Shown here piece after piece: positions 6,149 through 51,364 of a stretch of DNA of 51,364 nt (position 1 is its first letter; every line of letters begins with the position of its first letter). Made by a program: the position numbers and the translations under genes. Below the pieces are notes generated by a model that did not search any database, had not been told where the DNA came from, and was given only the letters and a program-made list of their open reading frames with translations. The stretch lies in NCBI GenBank assembly GCA_032718475.1, contig JAUCBJ010005124.1, positions 1-51,364 of the forward strand, written 5' to 3'. The stretch is from Nemertoderma westbladi. Lineage: Eukaryota > Animalia > Xenacoelomorpha.

Positions 6149-6629
6149 AATAAATTTGATAAATTAATGGGAATATAGCTTCTATGCAACAACTGGCCAG
6201 CACACAAGTATCACTTTGTTGCCTGCATAATATTGTTCCCCGAGAATGCCTCTGCCTCTCAGTTAACTTACCACGAGCTGTCAATCAGGAATACCTCGGA
6301 GTTTATTTTCTCAAAGAATTAAAAGTGCCACAAACTACCTCAAAGTGACATTTCTCAAAGAATTCAATGTGCCTAAAAGCAGGAAATCACTTTGAGATTC
6401 CCAACTAAAAGTGTCTACAAGAATTCAAAGTGGCCGTTGGGAGTAATGTAATGACTTTTAGACACTTTTAGAAAAACTTTGAGAAAATCTCAAAGAACAG
6501 ATGCACTTTGAGACCCCGACTGTATATCGCTCTATTTTTTTATTAAAGAATTGATTAACAAAAAAGTACCAATAATTTAAGAATAAAATTACGTATTACT
6601 GTACATGGGAAAACTCGTTACTCGAAAAC

Positions 6630-23351: not shown

Positions 23352-23357
23352 TATTTT

Positions 23358-23405
23358 AGGGAAACGGCCACTAGCGCATATGCCGTTCCCCTCTACTCGT
23401 TTCCC
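23358..23405 (-). promoter_or_regulatory. Programmed -1 ribosomal frameshift signal (G GGA AAC plus a 3' stem-loop) at the gag/pol junction
   Basis: Slippery heptamer at 23405-23399, in the gag frame just before the gag stop. A hairpin GGGGAACGGC...GCCGTTTCCC follows, and the -1 frame is open into pol (GKRVEGNGICASGRFPKIMGDLP). Confidence 0.8.
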
Positions 23406-24400: not shown

Positions 24401-24415
24401 GTTGCCCGGTTAGCT

Positions 24416-27870: not shown

Positions 27871-28698
27871 GACTTGAACTATGTGCTTTCCCACCCACTA
27901 TTGGTTTAACCTGATTAATTATCACCTCGCCACTCCCTGTTAGCATTGCCCCTTGGTGCTAGCCTTACTAGCTTGTTTCTCCCTCTGAGGTGGTTTGACC
28001 TCTCACCTCTCTCTGTGGCTTACGGCGTGTATCCCCCCCCCCCCCCCCCCCAGTTGGTTATGAGGTGAGATTATTATCGGTAATCTCACATTGCCAACTA
28101 TATTGGTAAAATGCCACACTAACCCCATTTTCGGTGGGTAGTGCACAGAATTGAATCCGCTTACCTATCATATTATTTATTTTGCAGCTTGGATCACGAT
28201 TCGATATCAGGATCAACATATTGAACCAAACGCAATCTCGATCTTGAAATTCAAGGACGTTTTGGTTGAGTATAGTCTTACTGTTCTCCAAAATTACAGT
28301 CAGTATGTCCCACTAGTCTATTAATATTTCTTTATATTTCTCTCTCTCTCTCTATATATATATACACCATGTCTCCTGTAGTAAATTGTATAAATATCAT
28401 ATTGTATCATATATGGGTGTTTGTATTGCAAAGTTCAGGTAGAAGATGTTCAATGTAGAATGAGAGCTAGTGCTTCATCAGGCGTTAGAGGACAGCCGCG
28501 CTGGGCTGTTGATGAATGTTCAGTACCGGTTGCTGAAATACAAACGACCCAATGGAGGAGTTGCTACGAGGATATAGTTCTCAGTCATTCTAGTGTACCT
28601 GTAGATGATGAAAGTGGGGATAGTGCTGGTAGGAGGGTACATGAACAGGAGGCTGCACAGGGGGGTATGGTAGGAGTAGGTTCAGCACACTATCTACT

Positions 28699-29538
28699 AT
28701 GTATTTCTATCATGCTCCACATTGCCAGAAGTGTAACTTAAAGCGCAGATTAAATGGAAGTAAATATTGTGCACGTTGTTTTATTATTCAACGTGAGCAA
28801 GAGAGGTCTAAATGTTGTAAGCCAAAACCTGTATTAAAAAAAGTTAAGAAAATTAGTTCAGATATTGATGAAACTGAAACTCTGCAGTCTGTCCCACTTC
28901 CTGGTCTAAAGAGAAAATGTAAAAACTGTTGTGTTTGTAGAAAACGCATAGCACGTGACTGCCTGTATTGTGGTACATGTGGCAACAAACTTAATAAGAA
29001 AAAGTTTGTTGCTAAGAAGTGCAGTAGCTCAACTGATGATAATGAACCTGTGTTAGAAGAGCCTACTATTGTGAGGGTGCCACAAAGCAAACGTTCTACA
29101 TTGGCTACCTGTGGTACTGTAGGCTGTTCCAACCATGTTGGAAAAGGAAGTACAAAGTGTAGACCCTGTTTGAATATTCAAAATAAGAAATATTGTAAGT
29201 GTGTAGAATGCAATAAAACACTGAGATATAAAGTAAATTTAAAGTATTGTAGAAATTGCATGAAGCATAAACGCTGGCTTGAAAGAGAAAGTTTATCAGA
29301 GAACAGTAATGTTTCTGTGAGTGATGAATCAATAAAAATCTTGCCTGATACACCAAAGAGAACTTGCAAATATTGCAGCAAAATTCTAACCCATCAATTT
29401 GTGCGGAAATTCTACAACAAAGTTTGTATGCAGAAACAAACAATGAAAGTTGGTAATAGTTCTGAGAGGGTCGATGTAGATGATACTGATAATGACACTG
29501 ATAATACTGACATATTACTAGATGCTGTGATTCCATGA
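28699..29538 (+). CDS. Unknown Cys/Lys-rich protein with many CxxC pairs (putative multi-zinc-binding); may extend upstream via 28421-28741
   Basis: 279-codon open frame with about 10 CxxC pairs separated by acidic/Ser linkers. It is not a simple tandem repeat. Confidence 0.5.
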   Translation: MYFYHAPHCQKCNLKRRLNGSKYCARCFIIQREQERSKCCKPKPVLKKVKKISSDIDETETLQSVPLPGLKRKCKNCCVCRKRIARDCLYCGTCGNKLNKKKFVAKKCSSSTDDNEPVLEEPTIVRVPQSKRSTLATCGTVGCSNHVGKGSTKCRPCLNIQNKKYCKCVECNKTLRYKVNLKYCRNCMKHKRWLERESLSENSNVSVSDESIKILPDTPKRTCKYCSKILTHQFVRKFYNKVCMQKQTMKVGNSSERVDVDDTDNDTDNTDILLDAVIP

Positions 29539-30644: not shown

Positions 30645-30992
30645 TAATAACCTGCCACAGTAACGTGATTATTTCCATTAGTCTGCTTATTCGCACCTTC
30701 AGATCCTTGACAACATCCTAGTACCAAATTATTTAGTTATTTAGTGTATAAATAATTATTTATAACCTCAGACACAATCAATCCGTCACTAATGATTAGG
30801 CACGGAATCACAACCGTAACAAACTGAAAAGATATCGCGGTGGTTGGGTGATATCTGGATGGGCTCAGTCTGCTGTAATAGATGCAGCTACGGAGCAGGT
30901 AGAACCTGCCAGGTTCCATATAACAACATCCATCATAAAGAAGGACAAACTTTATCACTTCAATTTATATAGAAGTAAGTTTGAAGAAATTT
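30645..30992 (+). repeat. Dispersed repeat, copy 2 of 17836-18182; abuts the truncated BEL element
   Basis: Direct sequence match. Confidence 0.9.
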
Positions 30993-33333
30993 GTTTGAGG
31001 ATGGTTGTTTGAGGATGTTGTTTGAGGAAAATGTTTGAGGAAAATGTTTGAGGATTTAAGAATGAAGTAACTTTATGTTGGTGAGAAACAACTGCACTAT
31101 AATCTCTCTGATTTCCAAGGAAAGGTAATCGGACTTGATAATGAGGTGGATCCTCTTTAGAGATTAAAGGAATAATTTCAGGTACAAAATGAATCTCACT
31201 CTCTTTAATTCCAATAGTTTCTAAGTTCCATAGATTGGACACTTCTATAGGTTCTGTTAATATTAAGGAAGGAGATAAACCCATATTAATGCAGGGGCTT
31301 ACAGTAATTGGGGAAGAAGGGCCAGTAAGTAAATGCCCAAAGAAAGTATCAACTATAGTAGGAGCATTTGGATACCGATAATAGGTACCTGTCAAAGCCC
31401 ATATTTGGTCAGCACCAATAATAAGATTAATAAGATAATTTGATAAATGGCAGATTGAAGAAAACATAGTTGGTAGATACTCCTGCTTAATGGAAGGACA
31501 GAGTTTGTTGGCTGTCCATGCGGTGAGGTCAATTGGTTCAGAAAAGAATTGGCTGAAAAGTTGAAATGACACTAAATTGGAGTCATGTGTAGTAATATGG
31601 TCTCCAAATGAACCCTTCGACATTATTCTGGTGTCTATAATGGGTAACTGGTAATTATTAGAAAGGTCGGATTTGATGTAGGTTCTCTTGGACCCATCAT
31701 CTAAATAAACATGGACCCACTGGCCATTATCACAAGAAGGTGAATAAAGATAGGCCATTGCCAGCTTAACAAAAACTTGATTATCTTGGCTGGAGTGAGT
31801 TGGCATCACTGGTATCACTGACATGGCAGGTCCACCAGATCGATTCCCTGATGGAATCCAACTAGTATCTAAAGCAGGAGGAGTTGGCTTTGACTGATCC
31901 CAAGGCTTGGTTGAATAATTAATTGGCTTTTGATACTGGAGGTACATACGCCTGGGAGGAAGGGAGCCTGGTATTACCAGAAGCTTGGTGGGTTTTAGGA
32001 TCACTAGAAGAGGTCGGGGTCTTTGGATCACGGTACTTTTTAAAACAAAGTAATGAGTTATGCCTCCCACCAGAATTATTGAAATTATATTTGGATTGGA
32101 CTTATGAGGTCCAAAGCAATTGGTACAAAGTTTCTTTGTTCTGATAAAGGTCCCTTTAGCATCAATGGACTTAGAAAGAAAATTTGGACAATCCTTAAGT
32201 CTATGGGGATGACCCTGACATGAAAGACAAGTTGGTTGCGGAGGAGCATTTTCAGTGACAGGCAATGATGAAGTAGTTAGAAGCTTGGGCAATTCTTTTA
32301 CCCTAGTATTCTGAGTTGGAGGTTTAGATAAATTGACTTGAGAATAAGCCAATGACTCCCTGGTTTCTAATTCTTGTCTAATGAACTCCAATATAAGATC
32401 TAAGTTAAATCTTTCACTGGGATTGTTTCTATTCCACACAATAATTAAATCCTGTGGAAGTTTTTGCTGTTGAAGTGGTGCTAACAGTAAAGAGGTGAGG
32501 TCTAAAGATAAAGCAGAATTGTCACTGGAGGTAACACTAGACTGCACCTCAGAAGATAACTGACGAATTTCCCTCAACCCACTTTAAAAAATATCCATCA
32601 TTTTGCGAAATGATTTAAGGTCTCCCTCCTTTATGGCTGGAAGGGAGCAAAGCTGTCTGGCATAGAGACCTATTAAAAGATGGGGGTTGCCATACCGACG
32701 TTTTAGGACTTCAATAGCAGTTTTATAATTGGCCGAGGTTGCTGGAAAACCAGACAAGGCATCCTTGGCTTCTCCCTCCAAGCTGTTACGCAAATAAATA
32801 AATTTCTGGACATCACTCAACCCGGGCTAAATGAATAAGCGCTTGAAATTGGTCCCAAAAAGGTCTCCAACTAAAATAATCACCACTAAAAGTCGGTAAA
32901 GAAATTTTCGGAAGACCACGAGTTGAGTTATTAGTCCCACTGGCTGACTGGGTTTCATCACTATGATGTGAACTGACAAGGCCTACCTTGTCTAAACGGG
33001 AAAGAACCCAGCCCATTTTGAACAAATAGCGGTCGAGATCACCAATTTATGTGTTGATGTCTTAGACTCATAATGGCCTATTTCGCTAAGTTCAGAATTT
33101 AAAGAATTTAATAAAATTAACTGGCGTTCACCAAGTTCAATCTGATAGGCCAGTTCATCTGAATCAAGTTCAGATTCATTTAGTTTAACAATATGTTCGA
33201 AATCAGTAATTAATTTAGATGCTTTTTGGCGTTCTGTTTTCCGCCTCCCTTTTATAAACTCTATCTGATCAATATTATCATCATCTATGTTGTCACCCTT
33301 ACCCCCACGGTTTTGAGTTTCACCATCTGCCAT
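30993..33333 (-). pseudogene. BEL/Pao gag-protease pseudogene, frameshifted and 3'-truncated before RT
   Basis: LPKISLPTFSGDYFSWRPFWDQF, QKFIYLRNSLEGEAK..NYKTAIEVLKRRYG, knuckles CLSCQGHPHRLKDC / CTNCFGPH, protease YLDDGSKRTYI..LIIGAD, LWNLETIGI. Spread over four ORFs. Confidence 0.9.
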
Positions 33334-33869
33334 GGTACTGATTGTTGCACATAAGTGGTAGTAGAAGGCAAAAAGAAAAAGTATAGAAGCAAGAACAGTC
33401 AGTTAAACGATGGTAATGAAAATCAATAACAAATATGCAGAATGGAAGGCGGGATACGGTAACTAAAGTCCCGGTCCTTCCCTAGCTAAACTATCTGACC
33501 TAAACTAGCACCAATATTGCACTGATATAACTGAAATGATATGATTACTGCCAAGTGGCTATATTGCACGGTTGGCCTTGTTACTCTACCTAATCGATGC
33601 CTTTCCCCCCTCTGATTGGTTGGTACCCTTGTTGGCGCCCTTTGGAGTGTTCCCGTTCACTCAACCTGTTCTCTCTGGGTTAGGGGTTTGGCCCCTGACC
33701 CTCATTGTGTGCTTCTCCTTCCCATTCTCATTGGGATGGCACGAGTTGGTTAATTGCCCAATCTCGTGGCTCCCAATATTGCTTATCGGCTTAACTTTAT
33801 GGGATGTTAGCGGGATTGAATAAGCTAACAGATTTGAAGTGGAATTCATTGTATTCATCGCAGTATGTT

Positions 33870-34300: not shown

Positions 34301-34834
34301 GACAAAGATTTCACAAAGAAGATGATTGAATGTAGTTGGAAACGATGAAAAGGATCAGACAACTCAACTATAAACCTGAATGGTGATGCGTATGATGATG
34401 AAAATGAAATGATGCGCACCCTGGTGCTGCGCTTATAACAAATGATGATAGCCGGGGGGCTATAAACCCAATGATGATGTGGAAATAAACAAAATGTGAA
34501 ATAAATGGTGGAACTAAATGATGAAATATATGTGGAAATAAATGAAATGTGATGAAATAATAAAGAGAAATGAAAAAAGACAAAAAAAGGTATAAAAAAG
34601 TCTGAAGAAAAGAATTGGAAAAAAGAAAGGACATAAAAAGTCATAAAACTGGTTGGATATTAATGTATAGCTATAGTAACTGTAAATGCTGAATGTATTA
34701 GCAATAAGATGATAGATGCCTATATAGCAATGTTATTTAATAAACTGAACTGAATTATTCTGCAATCACTATAGTTTCAGACTTTCTGGACTTATAATTA
34801 ACTGATCTAATTTGTAACGGATATAATCGTAAAT

Positions 34835-37411
34835 ATGGACCCAAATCGCCAAATTATCGGCGAATTACGTAACACGATAGATCTACTGGAATATTCGCAA
34901 CCTGGATCCCCTGACTTTGATACAAATTGGAGCACCCTGCTAAATGAGAACGTGCGAGTCGTTAAATTCACCAGGCAAGAGGGACCGGATTCCAAGAATC
35001 TACGAGCCCTCCAGTTAGCCGATGCTAGTACGAGACTGAAAAGAACTCGGAACGCAAAGGCAACCGGAGGGGACGATTCGGCGTTTTGGGAAACGTTCCG
35101 ACAGAGCGTCTACAGATCCCGATGTTTGATCTACGACAACGAGGGAAACGCGACGCCCACCTCGAAAGCGATTACATTGGCGAGATGTCAAAGTTTCGTC
35201 GACGACAAGAGTACGTACCTCGCCCACTGGGGAAACCTGTCGGAGTGTACGGCGACGCTTCGAGAGGAACGTATATCGACCATCCAAAATCGCGACGACT
35301 ACCAAGAAAAATACGGGGCGAAAGAATACGGTCGATCCTTGGTCGTCGTCCTCGGAACCCTGGACGGTTTGGTATTGGTGTGTCGAATATTTCCGACACC
35401 CAGACAGGAAGTGCAGGCAGCCAGAGCGATCTGGTTGCTACCTCCGGATATCCAAAAGATCCTCTTCGACTTCGACGTCATTAAAATCGGGTCGGATATA
35501 AAGGCGGATGTCCGGAACGACTACGCGAACGCTCCCTCAGGAAGAAACCGACGGGACGACCTCAACGCCCTTAGCCATTGCGTCGACACTCAAACGCTAC
35601 TAGCCCTGTTACGATTCGCCGAGTTCATGCGAGGATTCCGGGAGGTAAGACCGACAAAATCCGGGATCGGCTACCTCGCTGTGCTAAACGGCGGCATCGA
35701 CTTCAAACCCCAGAAATTCCGGGACTATAATAAAATATATGGTGGATACCCGGGATTAGAAATAAAGAGCGAGCGAGAGGGTCGATGGAAGGACGTTGAT
35801 CGGAAGTGGACGATACACCAAAGGTGGGAGAATCCCGATCGACGGAACTACGTTTACGTCGTTATGGAGTGCTACACCGTCGCTAAGTTTATCTGTAAAA
35901 CTCTCGGTAACCTTATTATGGCGGTTCCCCTTTCCTTCGTCGACTACGACTGGAACGAGGTCATAAACCACGCGTTCAAAGCGGTCGAGAACATCACACC
36001 GGGAGAGACTAAAACGCTCGCCGTTATCGATTACTGGGACGAGAGCGGACCTTACGACATCCCCACGATTACCGATCTTCTCGGTGCGGAGGAGCCTCTG
36101 ATCTCTTCGGAAGGGGAAGAAATATGGCTAAACGAGGGTGTTCTTCTCTCCACCCCGAAGCGACAACTCGAGCCGGAGGCCGCTTACCAACCGGCCACCA
36201 AACGGGTTGCCTCCACCGAACCAACGACGGAAGCGGGCGTTTCCTCACCACTCGGCTTCGGTAGCCCTGCGAGGGAGTTGGTTACTACCTTCGCGTTAAA
36301 CGACTTCGGCGATACGTGCCAAAGGTTATCCCCGTATCCTTTCCCGGGTGGCGAAGACTGGTCGTCGGAGATTCCGAGTATCAGCAATCAACGGACCCGC
36401 TCAGCGATGTTGGTCGAGAAGGGCCCCAGCGCTGCGCCGACTCCCGATGATCTCCTCGGAATCCCTCCGTCGAAAACCCCGGCACCTCTTCGCCGACCAG
36501 CAGTGGCTACTACACCCTCCGTTCCTCAGGATCCTATGCGACTAACCCGTTGGTACGCCGAGCAAACCGAATGGATCCACCGCCAGAAACGGTCGTCCGA
36601 GTTGAGGCCGACGGGACACAAAGAAGGTTATCGGAGCGAAGAACTACTATGCCAAAGCCCAGCCTTCCGCGGGCTACCGACCACCGCGAATATCCAGAAG
36701 AGCGACCGACGACTCGAGTATCACGTCGGCATCCCGATTCCGATATTCCCCAGTCGAGAGATGCAGTTGGAGGTGTGCGGCGACTGTGGTTCGGAGCAGT
36801 GCCCACGCGGTAGAAGGAATCGGGTTACCGATTCATGCCTCCAGCTCCTCGGGATACTCTATTGCCCATACTGCGCGAAATCGGGCCACGACGTTTCCTT
36901 CTGTCCGATCCTATATAACCTCTGCACCACGTGCGGTTTCCGTGGACATTCCTCTAGCCCCCACTGTTATATCAAATGTCCTACCAAAGACGTTACCGCT
37001 ATGGGAAATATGGTCATGTTTGAAACATACGCAAACAGCCACATAAAGACCAAGGTTCGGAGAAACGCTCGGAATATCGCGCAGGAGATGGCGTGCGGGT
37101 ACTTCTCCTTCCCGGAACGCCTCCACACGTCGGCCACGTTGCCTTTCCATTACGTGGATTTGTTGCTGAGCGCTGGATTATTCGGTCCATTCGAAGTCAT
37201 TAGACGCTTATACTCGTATGAAGAGGAGTTCGGCGACGGAGAGTGGTTCCTCGAGGCTCGCAACTCCGAGTTGGAACGACGAACCGATATGCTACCGATG
37301 CCATCGAAAGGAAGAGCCGCCAGGAGACAAGCCGAAGCGTTGCTCACGATGGATGTTGACGCTCCTCTACCAGCTATAGCGATCGACGAGAGCCGACGGG
37401 CGAAGAGGTGA
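34835..37411 (+). CDS. 858-aa protein: divergent DnaQ/DEDDy-like 3'-5' exonuclease domain, Pro-rich linker and C-terminal Cys/His zinc-knuckle cluster
   Basis: LPPDIQKILFDFDVIKIGSDIKADV, CVDTQ, SGIGYLA and W..PDRRNYVYVVMEC follow the WRN/EXD2/Mut-7 exonuclease pattern. C-terminal CPYCAKSGHDVSFC and CTTCGFRGH. Intact, GC- and CpG-rich, intronless; an acceptor-like TTTCAG lies at 34775-34780. Confidence 0.75.
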   Translation: MDPNRQIIGELRNTIDLLEYSQPGSPDFDTNWSTLLNENVRVVKFTRQEGPDSKNLRALQLADASTRLKRTRNAKATGGDDSAFWETFRQSVYRSRCLIYDNEGNATPTSKAITLARCQSFVDDKSTYLAHWGNLSECTATLREERISTIQNRDDYQEKYGAKEYGRSLVVVLGTLDGLVLVCRIFPTPRQEVQAARAIWLLPPDIQKILFDFDVIKIGSDIKADVRNDYANAPSGRNRRDDLNALSHCVDTQTLLALLRFAEFMRGFREVRPTKSGIGYLAVLNGGIDFKPQKFRDYNKIYGGYPGLEIKSEREGRWKDVDRKWTIHQRWENPDRRNYVYVVMECYTVAKFICKTLGNLIMAVPLSFVDYDWNEVINHAFKAVENITPGETKTLAVIDYWDESGPYDIPTITDLLGAEEPLISSEGEEIWLNEGVLLSTPKRQLEPEAAYQPATKRVASTEPTTEAGVSSPLGFGSPARELVTTFALNDFGDTCQRLSPYPFPGGEDWSSEIPSISNQRTRSAMLVEKGPSAAPTPDDLLGIPPSKTPAPLRRPAVATTPSVPQDPMRLTRWYAEQTEWIHRQKRSSELRPTGHKEGYRSEELLCQSPAFRGLPTTANIQKSDRRLEYHVGIPIPIFPSREMQLEVCGDCGSEQCPRGRRNRVTDSCLQLLGILYCPYCAKSGHDVSFCPILYNLCTTCGFRGHSSSPHCYIKCPTKDVTAMGNMVMFETYANSHIKTKVRRNARNIAQEMACGYFSFPERLHTSATLPFHYVDLLLSAGLFGPFEVIRRLYSYEEEFGDGEWFLEARNSELERRTDMLPMPSKGRAARRQAEALLTMDVDAPLPAIAIDESRRAKR

Positions 37412-39429: not shown

Positions 39430-40367
39430 GTGGGTAATTAAATAATATACTGTAGGGATTTATATTGTCGTGTATAATTATTGTGAATATTTGGTGTATA
39501 TTGATTTGGGGAAGCCCAAAATTATTCTCAATCAGGTTCAACAGAGTTCAGTTACATTAAAGAGTATATCCAACTAATGCAGCTTTTTCTCAACCGCAAC
39601 CTGCATCTCAGAAATCATTCCTTCTCCACAATCAATATCCGGTGACTGGCCGGGGCTCGGTGGTCTGTAAAGTCACGGCGTGTTTCCCCCCTGGTGTTGG
39701 GATAACGGCAACATACCACGCTGTTATATTATATTATATCGATTGCCAACTCATCGATTTACGCAGAACCCAATAATTTTCAATTGTACTGTATTTCCCT
39801 ACCAACTAATCAACCAACCAATAAACCGAATTTAGGCTATTTCTCAGAAAATTTCTCAGTTTTCTGAAAAAGCCAGGAAAGTTTTAAGCTCAATTGATAT
39901 TAATGCTTCTGATAATAGTATTCATCTCTTAGATTACAACCTGAAAGTTGAGCATGAGGGAAAATTAATCAATATCTTACTATTATCCATGATAGAGGGG
40001 TTAATTGTTATTACACAATACAACGAAGCTGGTGAAAAGTTTGAAATTTGGCTAAATCGGCATAATCCCTACGAAATTATGTCTTTCTTTATTGTAATGA
40101 TTTCAAAAGAATCCTTTGTCGAAACTGAAGAATCAACAGATAATGTTGAATATGTTGATAATATCATTGATTCTTGACTTTTCCCCCTATATTATAAATA
40201 TTTTATGATTATTTTTAAAATTTTGATCTTTTTAATTATGAAAAAAAATCAAATTTTAAATAATCGAAAATTGTAGTAGTATTTGTATATACAGTATATC
40301 AGATTTGTTTGTTGTGTATTGAGGTAATTATTTTCAATTTACTTTAAAATTTGGAAAATGGATATTT

Positions 40368-40772
40368 TTGCAACATCGAGATTATTATAAATGTGAAAAT
40401 AAACATGCAACTTGTGTACAATGTATTGTACAATATTCCGAAATGAATAATTATTGTTCTAAAATTTGTCCTATTTGTCGCGCGCCCATATCTAAGTTAA
40501 ATATGAAATTGGCGAGATACCAACCCTATTATTGGAAAGAGCTACGAAATATAACTTATATTTCTGCGGAAAGTAATGATCCTGGAGATTTATTTACAAT
40601 ATTGGAGAATATTTTTTATAGAAATGTAGTACGACGGTGTTGCTACTATATTCCTTATTTTTTTAGTAGCAAACATAAAAAAATCATTAGCGCGAAATTC
40701 CCGGGAGGTGATTTCCAAACCGCCGATGTTACCTATCATTATTTCGCGTATAAAGATGCTCACCATGCTTGA
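40368..40772 (+). CDS. RING-finger-like protein (probable Polinton accessory gene); N-terminus uncertain
   Basis: CENKHATCVQC...CPICRAPI; a CLLC-encoding stretch at ~40306 could supply the first Cys pair. Confidence 0.55.
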   Translation: MQHRDYYKCENKHATCVQCIVQYSEMNNYCSKICPICRAPISKLNMKLARYQPYYWKELRNITYISAESNDPGDLFTILENIFYRNVVRRCCYYIPYFFSSKHKKIISAKFPGGDFQTADVTYHYFAYKDAHHA

Positions 40773-40991
40773 AATTACATTGAAAATGAGTCTATACTAT
40801 AATTGGAAATAGCACCTTTTGTTGCAGCGAGCGTCACATACTGTAGTTGTGTCATATGTTAATTAAATATACAGTACTCTAATATTGTAGTTGCATCAAT
40901 TATTGTTATATACATAGTAATGGTGATGGTTTATTGATATTTATATTATATTATATTATATTGTATTGTTGATATATCTTAATAATAATAA

Positions 40992-41678
40992 ATGGCTGAC
41001 TTTAATTCAGGTCCATATAATTTAAACTTTCAAATGGGAACGAGTATGATAATTTCTGGCCCATCTGGTTCCGGAAAGTCTACATTTGTCGGCAATTTAA
41101 TTAAACACAAGAATGGTTGTTTCAACGAACCCCCCTTGCGAGTATTGTATTGTTACGGGAGCAATCCCCCAACTATTCCTGGTATTACACACCTTTACAA
41201 AGGTTTGCCTGAAAATATAGATAGTTTAGTGAATAGTCGAGATTTATTAATTATAGATGATTTATTAACAGAAACTGAGTCCAGTACAGCTTTAACTGTA
41301 TTGTTTACTAAGGTAGCTCATCATTCTAATATATTTATTTGTTTTATAACGCAAAACATGTTTTATGGTGGGAAGCATAACCGCACAAGATCAATTAATA
41401 GCCATACCTTAGTATTAATGAAAAATCCGCGAGACAGTTTATCGGTTTTAAATTTCGCGAAGCAGATGTTACCAGGGCAGACCAAATTTTTAGTAGATTC
41501 CTATCAAGATGCGACTATTGAACCATTTTCATATTTCTTAATTGATTTACGACAGGAAACACCCGAACATTTAAGATTTAGATCGGATATATTTTGTAAT
41601 CATAATTGTTGCATTAAAAATTACATTGACTATAAACGTAGCGAAAATAATAATAATAATAATAATAATAATAATTAA
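40992..41678 (+). CDS. Polinton/Maverick (adintovirus-like) A32/FtsK-HerA DNA packaging ATPase
   Basis: Walker A GPSGSGKS, Walker B LLIIDDL, then AHH.NI...FITQN.F, RT.S.N and LMKNPRD motifs. Confidence 0.92.
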   Translation: MADFNSGPYNLNFQMGTSMIISGPSGSGKSTFVGNLIKHKNGCFNEPPLRVLYCYGSNPPTIPGITHLYKGLPENIDSLVNSRDLLIIDDLLTETESSTALTVLFTKVAHHSNIFICFITQNMFYGGKHNRTRSINSHTLVLMKNPRDSLSVLNFAKQMLPGQTKFLVDSYQDATIEPFSYFLIDLRQETPEHLRFRSDIFCNHNCCIKNYIDYKRSENNNNNNNNNN

Positions 41679-41711
41679 TATTTTGTAACAATTTTCAATA
41701 ATGTTGCAACA

Positions 41712-42085
41712 ATGAATAGAAATATCGTAACGAGCTGGAATTTCTACGCAGCGCTACCCCTCAACAAAGAACTTATTTTATTAACCATACCGCGAGTTAC
41801 GAATTAATACGGCTCATTGTAAATACTACATTAAATGTTCTAAAAGGTAACGTACAATTGACCCCTCATTCATTTAGAAATATTCGCTGCTATAAAAAGG
41901 TATTAAAATCACTCAACTGCAAAACGAAAAATATATCAAGTTACAGAAAAAAGTTAAGCAATCAATCTGGAGGCATACTACCGTTTCTAATACCCTTACT
42001 CGGCATTGGTGCAAAACTCGCCGCGAGTGCTGGTGCCGCCGCCGCTGGAGCGGCTATTGCGAAAAAAATTAACCGCGGACGGTAA
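41712..42085 (+). CDS. Conserved Polinton small protein with a GG protease-site motif and amphipathic tail; 5' frameshift
   Basis: ...LIRLIVNTTLNVLKGNVQLT...KKVLKSL...KKLSNQSGGILPFLIPLL, directly downstream of the ATPase. Confidence 0.7.
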
Positions 42086-42306
42086 TAATGGTTAAAACAG
42101 GAGTAACATTTAGAAAATTATATTTAGTATCGAGTAAACCGTTAGCTACTGATTTAAAACCTCAAGATATACCTAGAGTAAATACTACAAAAAGAAAACC
42201 CTTTAAAACATCAACTTCAAAGAAAATAAAAAAATTTCAGCTGTTTTTACGGTGATGCCCTTTATAAGAGATTTGAATATACATATTACTTGCAGTTGTC
42301 GAAAAG

Positions 42307-42632
42307 ATGCCACGCAAGATGAGACCGATTTTAAGCTGAAGCTTAGACAAAAAACTGTTAAGAATTTATTTAGATCCTTCATCCCCTGCGGGTTTTGCAA
42401 GTATCGCAAAATTAGCAAAAGCCGCAAACATCAAACCAGCTCAAGCCCAGAAATGGTTGAGCGGGCACAAGACATACTCCCTTCACGCACCACGTAGACA
42501 TCATTATTCAACATCTAAAATATTTACGGGAGGGTTAAAAGATATATATATATATGATAGATCTGGTGGATATGCAGCAATATAAATCACAAAATAATAA
42601 TTATAACTATATATTAACATGTATTGATGCCA
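42307..42632 (+). pseudogene. Polinton retroviral-type (rve) integrase, N-terminal part only
   Basis: YLDPSSPAGF...KWLSGHKTYSLHAPRR, a frameshift in (AT)n, then IDLVDMQQYKSQNNNYNYILTCIDA. Similarity stops abruptly after this. Confidence 0.8.
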
Positions 42633-42894
42633 GCATTATGCAGGTATTTAATTTACTCAATTTCTATATCAATCTCTATTTACTTTGATCTACGAATTGT
42701 TCTAAGAATTTTATCAACTCAACTGCAATATTTACATTCTTCTATAAATATTATTTTTTCGATATACTCAAATTCCTATTATCTTTGATCTACGAATTGT
42801 TCTATTAACTTTATCACCTCAACTGCAATTTGATTTATTATTTCTTTTTTCACTCTCCACTCTTTCTTATCTAATATGTCTTATTCTGATTCAG

Positions 42895-44689
42895 ATGATT
42901 CTACCCCAACTGGCACTGGACCCCACTGGAGAAGTAATTCCTTCGAAATCAATCCGCTATATATACGACTGCACTATCTGCGATCCCCAAAGGCCACAGA
43001 AGTACCTCTCTACACATCTTCAGAAAGTTCATAATTTAAGTAAGGAAGAATCCAAACTACGAATACAAGAATTTAAAGAAGCATGGTCCCAATCTAAATC
43101 TACAAAGGTCATCAATAATCTAGAAGATTATATTTATACAGTAGTTAGGCAAATTATGGTTTCAAACAATGTTGGGGAGGGAGCTGAAGTATTGTCTGAT
43201 TGGGTTATTTTACGGCTAGGTAAAAAAGTTGATAAGGGTGTCCCAAACAAAGTTATATCATTAAGAGGCAATGACTTTATAAAATATAGAAACGTAGGAA
43301 GTCAGGCAGGTAATGGTATTGGCAACGGGAGACCTTAATGAGGGGCAGATTGCTGTAGATATTCCTTCAGCATCACCTAAACTTACATAAACTTGCATTC
43401 CCCTACCACACCTTGTTCAGTCATCCTTGCAAGGTGCGACTCTGTCCTTAAGGATAAAGGTTGTAGGAGGAACTTGAGTTTTTGGTTTTCCTCAGATGAT
43501 GCTGATAGTGAAGGAGAGATCATATGACCTCCTAAACGCCCCAGAGTGATGATGATAGTGATTGCGATGAGGTGGTAGGGAAGTGTGTCACAACTGGCTA
43601 TGACTGGGGTGCGCAATCGGTTAAGGGCAAGCTTGCTATACATGATTTTGACCTAAGGTTTGATCCAACCCATGTACAGGTTCTCCAGAAATGGAAGGAC
43701 TCCATGGTGGCGGATCAACGTAACAGTCAAAAATATGTCAAGCAAAACCTTAACACGGTTGCTACTATTGCATTCCAGTTTCAGAGGCGGTTGGGCACTA
43801 CTGATCAGGGTTTTGTAGAACTGTCAGTCTGTGACCTTGGGCAGTTGAAGTTGGTGATGGCAGAGGAGCATGAGAAATGTGGCATAAAGGGTGAAAGTTT
43901 AGATGGCCACCTGAAGTGCCTTCTGAGGTTCTTTCAGTTCAGATCTGGATCAACTGGTGCAGATGAAATATCATCTCACCTATGATCCAATATCTCCTTG
44001 GCCAGAGAGGCTATCAAGAGCTTCCACAAAACTCACCCTTTGGTCATCCCTAGAGAGACAGGGAAGGAGCTAAACTCAATGATTGAGTTTCATGATAAGA
44101 CTCCAGCAGATGCCCTGTTTCTTGTGAAGGATGAGAAAATCCTTCATTCTGTGATTGAGGCCCAGAGGAAACTTCACATAGGGTGGATTGATTGCACATT
44201 ATATTTGTTCTATGTTCAGTACCTTATGGCCATTATCATAGTTGGGGAGCACCAACGCCCTAGTGTTGCTGGAAAGATGAAGATGGTGGAATTCCATCGA
44301 GCATATAAGCCGCCCTTTGTGTCAGAATCAAGGCAGCACTTGATTTTGGTTGCTGACCATAAGACAAAGGCAACAAATAATGCTGCAGTTGTCCTCCCAC
44401 TACAGGATGATTCAACATTATTGCGATGTGATTAGACCGCGCATGCTAAAGCAAGCGGGTGTCTCACATAGCAACTATGTGTTCATCAATGGTAGAGGGA
44501 AGTTTTATGGGGTCTATCCCTCTCAGGAGATTGAGCGGATTCATGAAAGCCTCCATCTCGAGTTTAAGCCATCTGCCACTCAGATCCGGAAGATAGTTGA
44601 GACTGCTGCCTCTAAGCTATCTTGCCAAGAAAATCGAGATAAGCTGGCATCTTATCTGCCACTCTGTGGTTACGAGAGATCGTAATTAC
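42895..44689 (+). pseudogene. C2H2 zinc finger plus tyrosine recombinase (Crypton-like), disrupted
   Basis: CTIC..YLSTHLQKVH; catalytic motifs GEHQRPSV (R), VADHKT (K), SATQIRK (R) and, after a 1-nt shift, HSVVTRDRNY (H..Y). Confidence 0.85.
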
Positions 44690-47145
44690 ACGTTCGTGGG
44701 GCCTTCGCGCAGCACGAGGTACAGTTATGAGATACAAATTAAAATTAAGCGACTGTATCACAAAATCAGGTTTTGAGAAATTTACCCACACCACCAATCA
44801 ATCAAAGAAAGGGGGACAGTACGTGTTCACCCCTTTTAATCCCCCCCCCCCCCCCCCACCCTTCTCAACCACCAATACATAACCGTGACATCTACCACCC
44901 ACGGAAGGGTAGAACGAACTTATTTCCAATCGCACGTTAAATATGCAAAGCCAGGTGGTGTATATGAATATAATCAACGCCGTACTCGACTTAATTATTA
45001 TAAGCGTCGTTCAATCGTTGCGCTCGTCCAGAGTAAGTCCCCCCCCCCCCCCCCCCCCCCCTATCAGAAAGATTTACTCAACAAAAAATAGTGTAAATAA
45101 ATAAACAACTACAAGGATAAGAGGTCATGTGTAGGAAAGCTAATCAGACGATACCTTTACTAATATATTGAGCTGCATTGATCCATACATAGTAATGTTG
45201 GGTGATGGGGGGGGGGGGGTGAGGGGTAGGGGGTGTCTGGGTGGGTTGTTAGTATTAGGGTGCACAATATCGACGCACGCGCAGGAATGTGTTGATGTTT
45301 AATAGCACCGCATTCCCGCGTTAGAAAGCATCCCCAATTGGAATAAATAAATAAATTAAACGCGTTTCGTTATGTTCCTCGACTTATATTATTCTCTCCA
45401 CGGACGAGTTATTAGCTGCTAGACAGGTAGACCTAGTCCCCCACAACAACGGTCATACCTTCAATCAATCAATCAATTGAGCTCATATGAGCTCGTATAT
45501 TAGTTTTATTTATAAATTGAAATCTCACGAATTAATAGGCCTATTAGCTGATTAGTGAACTATCATATGTTAGACCATATATATATATTATATATTGGAC
45601 CTTATCAAAATAGCGGTTGTACTGGGGCGGTATATGTTGTTCTCTAACCCACTGCAAGCGCATTTGAGGGGCCGGTATGTTTTAATAACTTCTGGTACAA
45701 CGGGATGCAGTATTACAGCGCCAAGTAGATTTAATCTGATCAGAATATTCCGGACGCTAAGTTCATGTCATTCCCGATAAGTCGGGACTTTACAAAACTC
45801 GTGGATAAAACCGCGTGTAGCAGAGAGCAGATAAATTGGGTTGAATTGCAAAACAGAATAATATGGAACTGTAAGTGGAACTGCGGCGATTTGGGTTTTT
45901 TTGTTATGGTGAATAGTCAGCCTGTCCGCGATATGTTCAGCTGCCCTTTTTAATGGGTTGCAGGTACAAATGAAATACACATTGCAGTTACTAAAATAAA
46001 AGTGGCGCATATTATTGTACATTTACAACAACAATTATATAAATGCAATATGCCTGATCCCTATTAATGTACTTTGTACCGCCAATTCTGTAATTCAATA
46101 ACGCAAAGCCGCGTTTACTGTACAGCAGCACGTAATATATTTGATACTTATTATACTAACTAAACTAACAAACCGCAAGGCCTACTTACCGAAATAAATT
46201 AACTTTCAGTTAAATACAATATACTTGTTTGCTCTGTAAAAATTTTAATTAAAAACAATCCTGCCATTTAATATACCTAATTAGCATGGTTGCGTAAGCA
46301 GTATGAATTGGAATGAAATTGTGAAATAATTTATTTAAACTATTATGTACATTTAGATTAAATAATAATACAGTAAGTTGGCCTACAGAAATAAACATTG
46401 ATATTCGGAACAGTAAAACAATTATTTATTTCATTCATTCAACTAACCAGAGAGACTCATAGCTCCAGTGAATATTAACATCCCGACGTTACTTTAGTAA
46501 TAATATTAATGTCATTGAACCCGATACACACACACCTCCAATCAGCCAGTTCAATGGAGAGTGAGTGAATGGATGGCTACTAGCAGCAGCAGCAGTCTGC
46601 CTCTTACAAGCAAGGCTGACTGAATACCTCAAGTGTTGCTGGGAATCAAGCCAACTTGGATGTTAACCAATAAATGAGCAGTATTTAATGAGAATACATT
46701 TTTTATGCCGGTTTAATTACTTTAGATCAATTAAAGACACGATTATTAAAGCAAATCACTTGAACTAATTAAAAACTATAATAGAATGGAGTATGCGGAT
46801 TACATCTGTATATTTTTTAAGTATAATTATTGAAGTCTTATACTGTAAAACAATTAATTTCCTTTAAAAGGCAGGTTGAAAATGGTGTTTTTACCGTAAT
46901 CAACTTAATTAACTAATTAACTGCTATTATCTTAGCTTCTCGAAGGCCACACGGAAATTCTACTTGGAAAATTTCTAAACTTTTGCCATACAACATGTGT
47001 ACCAAGTTTGGATAGATTTCATCAAAGATTGGCCGAGTTATTAACGTTTAAAATTGAACACGACAGAACGACAGAACGACAGAACGACAGGTTGATTAAT
47101 GGTACCACTACGCTAAGGCTCACTCACTTCGTGGCTCGCCCCACA
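44688..47145 (+). mobile_element. DINE/HINE-like element, copy 2, inserted at the recombinase catalytic Tyr codon
   Basis: Same termini as 12008-14153, with (GACAGAAC)n before the 3' end. Removing it restores the recombinase reading frame. Confidence 0.7.
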
Positions 47146-47497
47146 TATTCGACACAACTAAGAGCTTTGATGGTCATGAATCTATTAAATTGCTGGCACA
47201 AGGCAACCAACCAGAGCTCATTTCTGAGATCTTTGATGGCTACCAGAATTTCCACCATATTATGGATGTGGTAACTCTTTTACTTGTGGAAGAGGAAGCT
47301 GTATATACCAAAGTAGGAACTTCTGGAACTACAAGTCCAAAGACTGCATCTTCTTCCAAATGACAGTGGACCAGTCCATTGAAAGGAAAGGATGCAGTAA
47401 TTCAGCTTAAAGAGGCCAAAGAGCAACTTCTGGCCATATACTCTCCAACACACAGTGTAAAGATTACCCTAAATGATCCCTTCTGCACTCTGGTTTA
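47145..47497 (+). pseudogene. Continuation of the recombinase ORF (linker region)
   Basis: IFDTTKSFDGHESIKLLAQG...SSSK*QWTSPL...KITLNDPFCTLV: about 117 codons with a single TGA, in frame with RNY. Confidence 0.7.
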
Positions 47498-47841
47498 CAG
47501 TCCCAATCCCAATAAACATTAACTTGGTCGTTTTGGCGGCCAAAATGACCAAAATCACCAAAAAAATGTAGTGTATTCCTATGGGCTACTTGGCCGTTTT
47601 GGCGAAGCGATTCAACTCGAATCAGCTCAATCCAGACAGTCTGTCTCCTTGGCCATCCATTTGGTGGATCTGACTAAATGTCGGCTCGCTTTCATTTTTA
47701 TTATTGACAGATTGTTAACTTACCCGGCGCTGAGCCTTGCAGTACTGGAGTCCGCCCACTGAGGCATTGATAGAGTACACAGTCTTATAAAAGGAGTTGA
47801 ATGGGGCTTCGTTAAAGGAGGAGTATGTATAATAATCTGAA

Positions 47842-48080
47842 CGTCCCGAAATTAATTTATGGACGTCCCGAAATTAATTTATGGACGTCCCGAAATTAAC
47901 TTATGGACGTCCTGAAATTAACTTATGGACGTCCCGAAATTAATTTATAGACGTCCCGAAATTAACTTATGGACGTCCCGAAATTAATTTATGGACGTCC
48001 CGAAATTAATCTATCAACTAATCAGAATCGTAATGAAATAACTAATTAATGGACGTCCATAAATTAATTTCGGGATGTTA
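47842..48080. repeat. 22-bp minisatellite (GGACGTCCCGAAATTAATTTAT)n with one inverted unit
   Basis: About 7.5 direct copies to 48012; inverted copy at about 48050-48076. Confidence 0.93.
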
Positions 48081-48164
48081 ATTTCGGAAATTAATTTCAA
48101 TAATACTTTTTTTTATAATAAAAATTTTTTTAAATATTTTTTTACAATGTATAATTAGCGGACA

Positions 48165-48575
48165 CTGCGGGGTGACTACAAAACAAAGACCCAATTATAA
48201 AGACCTGCATAATCTTGTTACATGTGTTAACTTTCGTTAATTGTTTTGAATCCCCCGCCACGCCTCTGTAACTTGCTCCTTTACTAACCTGCTCCTTTAA
48301 ATAGCAATGGTACATAACGCTCATTATGACCTGTATAAAACAAAGAGGTTAAGTCGCGTTACGTCCCAAAGAGCGTTAGGTTCCGAAGAGCTTTAGGTCC
48401 CATTGCCAGAGAGCGTGAGATCACATTGCCATTTAAAGGAGCAGGTTAGTAAAGAAGCAGGTTACAGAGGCGTGTTGGGGAACCAAAACAATAAACGAGA
48501 GTTAACACATGTGTTTTGTATTTGTACAGGTCTTTATTATTTGGGTCGTTGGTCTTTGTTTTGTAGTCACCCGAC
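48165..48575. mobile_element. MITE with ~145-bp imperfect inverted arms
   Basis: GGGTGACTACAAAACAAAGACC...CCTTTAAAT is inverted at ATTTAAAGG...GGTCTTTGTTTTGTAGTCACCC. TSD not resolved. Confidence 0.75.
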
Positions 48576-48688
48576 ACGGCGGTGTTGCGTGGGGGCCACC
48601 AATGCACCCACCCACACTCAACTCCCAACTTCCTGGACACTAGGATACTGAGTGAAAGCGTCTGAAACTACTACAGGAACTCCATGAC

Positions 48689-49805
48689 GGGTAACAGACG
48701 TTTCGGTCTAAGACGTTTTGGCCTAGGACGTTTCGGCCCAATAACTGGAACATCCAATTTGCTTGTCGGACGTTTTGGCCCAACCCAAAGAGTCAATCAA
48801 TCCCATAAATAAATCAAATTGAGTTTTGCATTCTTGCAGTAATTAATTATTACACTTTGAATATGTACAGTAGGTCATTCACACTCAACTCACACATTCA
48901 TTATTTTAATTAATTAAACTGTTTGATCCCTAATCGCTATTATACTGCGCAATATAGTATCTGTTGGAGAAATGGGCTTGTATGTTATTAATGTTGTTGT
49001 TAATAGGTCATACAGTCACAACTTGTAGAATCGCTATCACTTTTTTTAGTTAATGGATTATTTTAATTAACCTCCAATAGAAAGATACTGGATTGTTGCA
49101 ATTTTAAATCAATTATTTTATATTTTATTTTGAATTATTTTATTTAACTTCAATTTTTATGCTCTTCAACTATTTTAAATATGTCATCATCATCACCTCT
49201 CCTTACTAAGAGGAAACCAGCCAAACTTAATTTCGCATTCTCTGAATTGCTGAGTTCACACAAGCCAAGCAAGCAAGCAAGTTACTGGCACAGTTATCGG
49301 TGGCAACTGATCCACCTATTAGGAAGTTTGTTAAGATCGAAGCTTTACATAAGCGTTTGTGAACGATCACTCAGCAAAGGGCAACCGGCGCTCGTTCCAT
49401 ACCAAACTTCATGGAAGCCATTGATTGGGTTTAATCTGGCAGATAAAAATTATATTCCTGAATAAATAGAATTACCTCTCATTGGTTATACTGTATACGG
49501 TTATTTTTATAATTGTGAATAATATTGATTGTGTTTGAATTTCTATTAATTATGAAATAAACGTATGTTATTGTGTTATACAGTAGCTTAATGTGAAAAT
49601 GATAATTATAATTTTAATGAATAATTATTGTGATTAAAGTACCTGGTCTTTTCATTCATTGTCAACCATTAGCCGAAACTTCCACACTGAAAAGTCCAGG
49701 GCGAATCGTCCGGGCCGAAACGTCCGGGCCGAATCGTCCGGGCCGAATCGTCCGGGCCGAAACGTCCTGGGCCGAAACGTCCTAGGCCGAAACGTCTGTA
49801 TACCC
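48689..49805. mobile_element. Non-autonomous DNA transposon with an 8-bp TSD and 15-bp subterminal repeats
   Basis: TCCATGAC|GGGTAACAGACG...CGTCTGTATACCC|TCCATGAC, with GGCCGAAACGTCC arrays inverted at the two ends. Confidence 0.88.
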
Positions 49806-50869
49806 TCCATGACAGACTATGGGCTAGCGACTAGGGACTAGCGCCCTTGAACATGTAAACTGTAGTACCTACTGTACCACCTACCTTAAAGTGACCTTTG
49901 GGACCAGCCCATTATTAGTGAGGTCGGCATTTCTCTTTATCCTGCCGCTCTTTGTATTACAATAGCATACAGCTAACCAATGGCAATGGTCTACCCCCAG
50001 TGCGGGAAAGACAATCTGGCTACCATTGAAATGGATAGGGGAAGGATAATATGGTGTGTTCGTGTTCCCAACCTAATGTCTGTCGTCTTGGCTCAGCTAA
50101 GCTTAAACAGAGCCACAGCCTACAATAGAGCTTTACCTAAATACACTTCCAGTGAGCCAAGCAGTAGTGGCGGGTTAGCTCCAAAATGCCCATGTAGGAT
50201 TTCTTTGAAAAAGGACCAATTGATTGAGTTACGAGTTACAGCGAAAAAGTATTCATGATTAGATTTTGCTTTGAACAGGAGAAACAGATGGAATATATAG
50301 GTCATCTAATTAATTGTTTAAAGATTAGCAAACAATACAGTGTAATTGAATTGATGAAATCCATAAATAAAATGTGGATACAAAATGTAAAATCGGGATG
50401 CATAATATAAATTTCTGAGCTAAGAAAGGGAAATTGGATACTGTACAACTTGTCTGGATACAAGCGGTCCGTTTACCTTACAAAATGAAAAATAAACGTG
50501 CGAAATATAAAACAGTAGTGTCTTACTCGAACGGAACGGAACTGTCCGGGGGGGGGGGAATGTAGGGAAATCGAAGCCTTTTTCTATCTGCCAACATCCT
50601 TGGCTTTACTTACACTCAGCCTCTATTCACTGGCTGTGATTGACAAGCCAACTTGCCTCAGAAGTTCCTTTCATGAATGCCGCAATTTATATTTGGCCAT
50701 TTTGGTCGTTTTGGCCGCCAAAATGACCAAGTTAATGTTTATTGGGATTGGGACTGTAGAGTGCAGTCGCTCTCTCAAAGAAATCTAAGAACATACTGGG
50801 GGCATCGGCAGACCATCGAAAGGCAACACTATATACAAAGTGTATAAAAGATGTCAGCACTCATTAGGA

Positions 50870-51283
50870 CACCTCAAAGTCGAGACACATCCCTCTGAAG
50901 TTTTTGGTCAGTGTCTTATAACTACCAAATCCTTCATATGTGGTGATGTGATATGCGACTACAATGGGGAACTAATCCTGACAACCAAGTCTGTATAATT
51001 TACAGAGAAACAAAAAAAAAATGAGGAATTAGACAATTGCTACAATTTCTTCTTCCAACACAGATCACAATATTATTATATTAACCCCCAAGATGTATCT
51101 TCCTTTGGCAAGTTCATTATGCATTCCAAGGATGGCAATGTACGGCCAAAGCAAGAAATACATCTTGGAAAGGCTTGTATTATATTTTATGCGATCAAGA
51201 ACATAAAGGTTGGAGAAATTCTGGCATATGATTATAATGATAGGAGATCTTGCTCCGCAGTTGCAGATTTCTGCAATGCTTGA
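50870..51283 (+). pseudogene. SET-domain lysine methyltransferase (SETD8/PR-Set7-like), one in-frame stop; not in the ORF track
   Basis: My translation: FGQCLITTKSFICGDVICDYNGELI...(TAA 50996)...CYNFFF...FGKFIMHSKDGNV...IIFYAIKNIKVGEILAYDYND. This covers SET motifs I-IV (RxxNHS and ELxYDY equivalents). Confidence 0.85.
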
Positions 51284-51364
51284 TTTGCAACTATGTAACG
51301 TTACAGCTGTTGTTCCTGGGCTCCACGTCAGTTGGCCCCCTGGCTGATGAGTCTCTACTCAGGC

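What the first reader, a model, noticed from the sequence alone, without database searches (positions are those of the whole stretch)
42895..51283. Hidden C2H2 - tyrosine recombinase - SET methyltransferase gene, reassembled across two insertions
Seen: removing the HINE-like insert (44688-47145) and the TA-flanked Tc1-like insert (47498-50756) leaves one colinear plus-strand coding region. It runs C2H2 finger, YR with R-K-R-H-Y motifs, a linker continuing in frame from the catalytic Tyr (RNY|IFDTTK...), then RNLRTYW..RQ and a SETD8-like SET domain that the ORF track misses. Established: Crypton-type DNA transposons use YRs, and SETD8/PR-Set7 methylates H4K20. Inference: this is a YR-mobilised element with its own histone methyltransferase, which could mark chromatin at its integration site or on excised circles, or counter host silencing. 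This copy is dead (several stops and frameshifts). Similar fusions may already exist as uncharacterised predictions, so novelty needs checking.
Basis: partly seen in the sequence, partly recalled or inferred. Interest (0 to 1): 0.8.

Follow-up and report, generated by a model that had tools for sequence, protein, structure and literature searches.

The report
Dead recombinase-methyltransferase transposon, twice interrupted
A broken, repeated gene in an invertebrate genome, split by two later insertions, joins a likely DNA cut-and-rejoin enzyme to a domain resembling the histone-marking enzyme SETD8; it is likely a dead jumping gene that would have marked its own chromatin, a pairing already visible, though not read as a transposon, in a published table of hydroid genes.

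Summary
The anatomy holds. Contigs from three public runs (two samples) join the sequence across both inserts, so uninterrupted sibling copies exist and the recombinase-like part, linker and SET part are colinear. The SET domain is solid and SETD8-like (Pfam E 1.6e-11, PDB E 1.4e-15). The tyrosine-recombinase call is likely but unproven: residue order and spacing fit and language-model neighbours are recombinases, yet profile and fold tests were not significant and no homologue was retrieved. Corrections: insert 1 fits a HINE only partly (ACA at both ends, no TT target); the linker does not run in frame into the SET part, which needs a short intron or a frameshift; no intact copy and no element ends were found. 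The unit abuts a broken Polinton-like integrase but is not a normal part of that element. SETD8-like SET plus recombinase in one protein is listed in a Hydractinia supplement (PMC10368294, SET first), SET capture by other transposons is known, and this scan noted recombinase-SET fusions before on other DNA. Verdict: a dead member of an under-described Crypton-like group.

The parts
42646..42835 (+). Tandem units of about 85 bp upstream of the gene; siblings hold more units, so the true left end may be missing here
   Evidence: (joints going back to 42646)
42876..43595 (+). N-terminal coding region: acidic start, C2H2-like motif (42970-43032), low-complexity spacer; broken by frameshifts, stops and a deletion of about 190 bp at 43319
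   Evidence: motif not supported by Pfam, weak PDB rows E 0.29-1.8
43596..44687 (+). Likely tyrosine recombinase: R 44256, HKT 44358-44366, TxxR 44578-44589, H 44660, Y codon starting 44687 and split by insert 1; stop at 43983, frameshifts near 44032/44062, 44410, 44659
   Evidence: spacing; language-model neighbours; profile tests not significant
44688..47145 (.). Insert 1: very high-copy non-coding element with ACA at both ends (net 2455 bp), terminal hairpin, short microsatellite, 7-bp subterminal inverted match
   Evidence: (joint, depth, loose ends)
47146..47497 (+). Linker after the catalytic Tyr; stop at 47361; possible splice donor at 47457 (inferred)
   Evidence: no family match
47498..50756 (.). 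Insert 2: non-coding element with 65-bp inverted ends and TA duplication (Tc1/mariner-like), itself holding nested elements
48689..49804 (.). Nested element with a 9-bp target duplication and inverted ends (Mutator-like by recalled convention)
   Evidence: (joint 48679-49805, 9 letters fit both sides)
50757..50851 (+). Pre-SET segment (RNLRTYW..RQ); possible splice acceptor at 50764-50766 (inferred); frameshift near 50845
   Evidence: (record 5)
50852..51283 (+). SETD8-like SET domain (core about 50906-51238), stop inside at 50996, end stop 51281-51283
39836..42631 (+). Neighbour, not part of the unit: Polinton-like gene run (RING protein, A32-like ATPase, protein-X-like core protein, broken integrase) cut at 42631
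   Evidence: (Pox_A32 E 0.0027, Adeno_PX E 0.012, both under cut-off); family label partly from my own knowledge

Best explanation
This is a dead, twice-interrupted copy of a repeated gene that joins a likely tyrosine recombinase to a SETD8-like SET domain, and it is likely the single gene of a Crypton-like DNA transposon. Shown: colinearity across both inserts, several copies, the SET domain, neutral decay. Inferred by analogy with Cryptons: the recombinase would bind the element ends (helped by the zinc finger), excise a circle and insert it elsewhere through a 3'-phosphotyrosine. Inferred from SETD8: the tethered SET domain would monomethylate H4K20 on nucleosomes near the element or its circle, keeping it open or repair-competent rather than silenced. 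The gene was probably spliced (a 65-nt intron would join linker and SET part in frame, with insert 2 inside it). This copy then landed in or was joined by deletion to a Polinton-like integrase and collected two non-autonomous insertions.
For: Joins across both inserts in 3 of 4 runs laid, two samples. Further copies L001 (86-93% identical) and L002 (85%) in assembly B1 and several contig classes. Two stops, the 190-bp deletion and a compensating frameshift pair are absent from the dominant sibling contigs. SET: Pfam 45 bits against cut-off 22.4; the 14 best of 43 PDB rows are SETD8, next family E 9e-7. Spacing R2-H 73 nt, H-Y 9 residues, against 22-24 and 9-10 in 14 of 18 reference recombinases (one more gave 27 by a pattern artefact, three had no pattern match). 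Atlas: 30 of 30 hits lack a common Pfam family, best three 0.96-0.98 in eukaryote clusters (Chordata, Arthropoda, Mollusca); nearest named clusters all recombinase-type at 0.86-0.87; second piece, 9 of 30 hits carry PF00589 or PF12835 on 10-13% of members at 0.91-0.92. The motif chain occurs in 156 of 20000 shuffles (pattern written after seeing the sequence). SET_SETD8 plus DNA_BRE_C in 3 of 24 Hydractinia proteins.
Against: No homologue retrieved; the one locus is a stand-alone bacterial SET. A profile of 18 bacterial and phage recombinases scores the read-through domain at -0.3 bits, matched by 130 of 1376 reported shuffles; the C-terminal box at -1.1, matched by 1463 of 4184; hhalign probability 1%, 1 of 150 shuffles as high. 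No element ends or target site. No intact copy: in run X1 the dominant contigs show no gap across the frameshifts near 44410 and 44659 (records 6 and 8), and window versus L001 differences fall evenly on codon positions (13/18/15; 8 silent, 30 replacing), so the copies could have multiplied after death. In this copy the SET cofactor motifs are damaged (Asn of NHS is Met, last Gly of GxG is Cys).
Confidence: 0.72

Rival explanations
1. A once-mobile or host recombinase-SET gene multiplied passively, by segmental or tandem duplication or as a passenger of other elements, after it died.
For: Dominant contigs in run X1 share two frameshifts with the window; neutral divergence from L001; no termini seen; L001 and L002 are fragments bounded by unrelated repeats.
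Against: At least three divergence classes (about 2-3%, 7-14%, 15%) with different neighbours; some contigs carry 8 more letters across the 44410 break, which keeps the frame (run X2 records 15 and 16); the left neighbour here is not shared by Polinton-like contigs.
Confidence: 0.12
2. The gene is cargo of a larger virus-like element (the adjacent Polinton-like element or an unseen large recombinase-integrated DNA virus), with the SET domain serving that element.
For: It begins 14 bp after a broken Polinton-like integrase; SET and recombinase genes are each annotated in some MELD viruses (PMC8502044, passages); the right end lies beyond the window.
Against: Polinton-like contigs in all three runs leave the window's sequence at 42631 and go on with a common, different sequence, so the join is peculiar to this locus; GC differs (31% against 43%); no capsid or polymerase gene is attached in the window; no match in viral contigs.
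Confidence: 0.08
3. The middle region is not a tyrosine recombinase; the motifs are chance, and the gene is some other SET-bearing repeat protein.
For: All profile tests were non-significant.
Against: Five residues in the right order and spacing; two separate pieces point to recombinase clusters in the Atlas; both local alignments fall on the same strand after the catalytic Lys; the references were bacterial and distant.
Confidence: 0.06
4. The SET part is a processed pseudogene of host SETD8 lying next to an unrelated recombinase relic.
For: Host SETD8 was not retrieved for direct comparison (one search found nothing in B1); the frame between linker and SET part is not continuous.
Against: Siblings without insert 2 join linker and SET part at the same depth as the other join; only 40 of 118 identities to human SETD8, in line with the divergent extra copies rather than the canonical genes of PMC10368294 (CD-Search E about 1e-18 to 1e-40 against 1e-58 to 1e-82; a different method).
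Confidence: 0.02

Closest known systems
Crypton DNA transposons (CryptonF, S, A, I; Kojima and Jurka 2011, PMC3212892, passages)
   Same: One recombinase-type gene, no reverse transcriptase, no long inverted ends seen, repeated copies.
   Different: Animal CryptonA and I are described as having no C-terminal domain; this gene has a zinc-finger-like motif in front and a linker plus SET domain behind. No DUF3504 or other Crypton Pfam match. Terminal direct repeats could not be examined.
CryptonV (Kapitonov and Jurka 2012, Repbase Reports; seen only as a title and one sentence in PMC8869645)
   Same: Animal recombinase transposons; the likely home of this group according to earlier scan notes (unchecked).
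   Different: Some families target microsatellites; no microsatellite lies at the left junction here and the ends are unknown. Whether Repbase entries carry SET domains could not be seen.
Extra SETD8-like genes of Hydractinia, Hydra and sea urchin (PMC10368294; passages, section 9, S8 table)
   Same: Divergent, dispersed SETD8-like SET in long proteins; 3 of 24 listed Hydractinia proteins also have a DNA_BRE_C recombinase domain.
   Different: In those three the SET is N-terminal and the recombinase C-terminal, the reverse of this gene; the authors discuss them as chromatin regulators, not as transposon genes, in the parts I read.
SET-carrying HarbingerS, MuDR and proto-Helentron elements of Phytophthora (PMC12730594 and PMC4067079, passages)
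   Same: A transposon carrying a histone methyltransferase domain, read as a counter to host silencing.
   Different: Other transposases, oomycete hosts; the Helentron SET is a separate ORF compared with Clr4, not a SETD8-like domain fused to a recombinase.
SETD8/PR-Set7/KMT5A (PMC5034662, passages)
   Same: Best sequence match; the aromatic residues of the lysine channel and the C-terminal YDY are kept.
   Different: About a third identical; repeated; fused behind a recombinase-like domain; lacks an obvious basic N-terminal nucleosome-binding stretch; cofactor motifs damaged in this copy.

Membership tests
Crypton | Tyrosine recombinase with catalytic R-(K)-H-R-(H/W)-Y | tested here: inconclusive
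   Order and spacing fit, HxxR His is Thr; Atlas neighbours are recombinases; profile and fold tests not significant
Crypton | No reverse transcriptase/RNase H (separates it from DIRS and Ngaro) | tested here: met
   About 2.7 kb of coding span, none of it RT-like, between 42632 and the window end; sequence beyond 51364 not seen
Crypton | Short 4-6 bp direct repeats at the ends, no TIR | not testable with these tools
   No genome held; left side ends in a tandem array, right side runs off the window
Crypton | Dispersed multiple copies | tested here: met
   L001, L002 and several contig classes; common ends not shown
CryptonA / CryptonI | No C-terminal domain after the recombinase | tested here: not met
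   Linker and SET domain follow
CryptonV | Recombinase groups with CryptonV; some families insert in microsatellites | not testable with these tools
   No CryptonV sequence or Repbase text held; no homologue retrieved for a tree
SETD8/KMT5A-like SET | SET domain closest to SETD8 | tested here: met
SETD8/KMT5A-like SET | Intact cofactor motifs (GxG, NHS) and H4K20 activity | tested here: not met
   Both motifs altered in this dead copy; state in siblings not read; activity untested
HINE / DINE-1-like (insert 1) | Insertion between T nucleotides, no target change | tested here: not met
   ACA ends the element in 10 of 10 B1 loci, also begins it (loose ends), and the empty site keeps one ACA
HINE / DINE-1-like (insert 1) | 12-15 bp subterminal inverted repeats, terminal palindrome, microsatellite | tested here: inconclusive
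   7-bp inverted match, a hairpin at the left end and a short microsatellite; criteria from PMC4067079
Tc1/mariner non-autonomous (insert 2) | TA duplication and terminal inverted repeats | tested here: met
   no transposase ORF inside, partner not sought
Polinton/adintovirus cargo | Gene is a regular part of the neighbouring Polinton-like element | tested here: not met
   Polinton-like contigs diverge at 42631 in all three runs

The most novel reading that the evidence does not exclude
A widespread, formally undescribed group of animal recombinase transposons carries its own active SETD8-type H4K20 methyltransferase, fused at either end of the recombinase, writes H4K20me1 on its own insertions or circles, and accounts for the unexplained expansions of 'extra' KMT5A genes switched on at genome activation in hydroids and sea urchins; this locus documents the SET-last form.
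Probability: 0.35. Interest if true: 0.75.

Novelty: new variant of a known kind. Interest (0 to 1): 0.45.

Why it matters
If such elements are active they would be animal transposons that write a histone mark themselves, and dozens of genes now counted as host H4K20 methyltransferases in some invertebrates would be transposon genes. That is testable on intact, expressed relatives. This copy adds the SET-last arrangement and clean empty-site evidence, but it is dead, without ends, and a poor handle for experiments.

Tried and rejected
Homologue searches that found nothing: protein collection with the recombinase piece (longer; near) and SET piece (longer); 1.84 billion representatives (the query held a 10-residue wrong-frame stretch later seen); 15 invertebrate assemblies by protein, matches only in B1; SET piece in B1; DNA index (outside B1 only 25-49 base chance matches); viral and metagenome contigs (one search gave a bacterial SET, rejected); phage records; Pfam, PHROGs, NCBIfam, PDB for the recombinase pieces. 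These blanks do not show absence. Single-sequence folds were poor (pLDDT 35 and 55) and the fold searches uninformative (best Z 3.5; no E under 1). No RNA holder listed, so expression and the proposed intron are untested. Rfam: no match. The rest of the Polinton-like integrase was not found in the window. An intron at the 44410 break was rejected (18 nt, and it would cut conserved coding sequence). ALOG-type DIRS elements (PMC3537659, parts 1-2 of 5) do not fit: they have RT and an adenine methylase. Papers searched for a description of recombinase-SET transposons; none found; Repbase Reports and bioRxiv supplements are not held and may describe them. PMC9406493, PMC11071296 and PMC12153100 (passages) added nothing on the fusion.
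Full report
Setting. The window is repeat-rich invertebrate DNA: several LTR-retrotransposon ORFs, tandem arrays and non-coding insertions. No whole genome is held. A second assembly of the same species (B1) and public contig sets (X1, X3 one sample; X2 another study; X5 a third, with next to none of the gene) were reachable.

The inserts are real and siblings lack them. Laying contigs on 42560-51364 gave two joints that skip the inserts in 3 of 4 runs: 44687 to 47143 (2455 bases; depth 200, 169, 118) and 47477 to 50757 (depth 184, 117, 93). The insert ends lie at summed depths of thousands to hundreds of thousands, the gene parts at a few hundred to about 1200. Insert 2 has a TA duplication and 65-bp inverted ends (61 of 65) and holds a nested element with a 9-bp duplication. 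Insert 1 ends in ACA in 10 of 10 B1 loci fetched (of 12 or more matches), begins with ACA before unrelated flanks (table 7), and leaves one ACA in the empty site.

The gene. With the inserts skipped about 2.7 kb of coding sequence remains: an acidic start from 42876, a C2H2-like motif, a recombinase-like region, a linker and a SET domain. The SET domain passes Pfam's cut-off (45 bits, E 1.6e-11); its 14 best PDB rows of 43 are SETD8/KMT5A, with 40 of 118 identities by my count. Its cofactor motifs are damaged in this copy. The recombinase is less secure. R, K, R, H, Y stand in order; R2 to H is 73 nt across a frameshift and H to Y nine residues, against 22-24 and 9-10 residues in 14 of 18 fetched references. 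The Atlas places one piece among unnamed eukaryote clusters at 0.96-0.98 with recombinase families as nearest named clusters, and a second piece near phage-integrase-bearing clusters. Against this, profiles built from the 18 bacterial and phage references did not separate the read-through domain from shuffles, hhalign gave 1%, folds were poor, and no homologue was retrieved. I put the recombinase identity at about 0.9, partly on recalled resemblance to animal recombinase-SET proteins, which no call tested.

Frame into the SET part. Sibling contigs have 34 letters between 47477 and 50757 and two extra letters within 50757-50884 (record 5). The two extra letters would link the RNLRTYW frame to the SET frame, but the 34 do not link the linker frame to RNLRTYW. 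A GT at 47457 and a CAG at 50764-50766 would make a 65-nt phase-0 intron that does; this is inference, with no RNA run listed. Otherwise the siblings share a frameshift there.

Copies and state. L001 (86-93%) and L002 (85%) are fragments at other sites. Contigs fall into several classes; the joined class lies at about four to six times the depth of a diverged class that I take to be L001 (45 in X1, 18 in X3), which hints at a handful of copies, though depth is not copy number. At several diagnostic places all laid depth carried another letter than the window, so the window's own copy was not seen there. Stops at 43525 and 43983, the deletion at 43319 and the frameshift pair at 44032/44062 are absent from the dominant contigs; but in X1 those contigs show no gap across the breaks near 44410 and 44659, while two X2 contigs keep the frame at 44410 (60 substitution rows and 13 gap rows were not shown). 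Differences to L001 are neutral (13/18/15 by codon position). No intact copy was shown.

Boundaries. On the left the gene is preceded by tandem units of about 85 bp from 42646, more numerous in siblings, then 14 unassigned bases and a Polinton-like integrase broken at 42631; contigs of that element leave the window there in all three runs. The Polinton label rests on weak Pfam rows (Pox_A32 E 0.0027, Adeno_PX E 0.012), gene order and my own knowledge. The right side runs off the window at unchanged depth. Ends and target site are therefore unknown.

Mechanism. Most likely (0.72) a Crypton-like element: recombinase-driven excision as a circle and reinsertion, as proposed for Cryptons (PMC3212892, passages), with a tethered SETD8-like domain that would mark H4K20 locally (SETD8 function from PMC5034662, passages). 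Only colinearity, repetition and domain identity of the SET are shown.

Relation to what is known. Transposon-borne SET genes are in print for HarbingerS, MuDR and a proto-Helentron. PMC10368294 reports 65, 24 and 61 KMT5A-like genes in Hydractinia, Hydra and sea urchin (section 9); its S8 table lists DNA_BRE_C in 3 of 24 Hydractinia proteins, SET first. Nine paper searches found no description of recombinase-SET transposons; Repbase Reports are not held. Earlier notes of this scan describe such fusions in at least six other windows; they are unchecked leads, and one pointed me to the extra-methyltransferase literature.

Verdict. Observation largely right, interpretation plausible but unproven, novelty moderate: a new variant of a known kind, seen here in a dead copy. 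Interest 0.45.

Noticed in passing
window 44688-47145; L026-L035: Insert 1 is a very high-copy element with ACA at both ends and one ACA in the empty site. Joined end to end, its termini would give 7-bp inverted arms around a 6-bp spacer, like a tyrosine-recombinase site; it may be a non-autonomous Crypton-type element rather than a HINE. Short subterminal repeats would give the same picture.
   Followed up: partly
window 39836-42631: Polinton/adintovirus-like gene run (RING protein, A32-like ATPase, protein-X-like core protein, broken integrase), cut at 42631.
   Followed up: partly
window 34811-37411: Intact-looking 866-codon ORF, GC-rich, with exonuclease-like and Cys/His-rich stretches by eye; no Pfam match.
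   Followed up: partly
window 28645-29538: 297-codon Cys-rich ORF with many CxxC pairs; no Pfam match over E 0.06.
   Followed up: partly
window 2960-6163 (-), 20371-24409 (-), 30955-33402 (-), 482-1309 (-): Near-intact Gypsy-like and BEL/Pao-like retrotransposon ORFs, labelled by eye from the translations.
   Followed up: no
window 47838-48079, 48160-48570, 48689-49804: Nested repeats inside insert 2: a 22-bp tandem array with an inverted copy, a very high-copy palindromic element, and an element with a 9-bp duplication.
   Followed up: partly
L001 3102-4199 (-): 365-codon ORF of another element interrupts the second copy; no Pfam match.
   Followed up: partly
PMC10368294 supplements: Hydractinia HyS0050.113, neighbour in number of the SETD8-like HyS0050.112, has a weak XerA hit and is strongly activated at genome activation: possibly a split model of one more SET-recombinase gene.
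   Followed up: no
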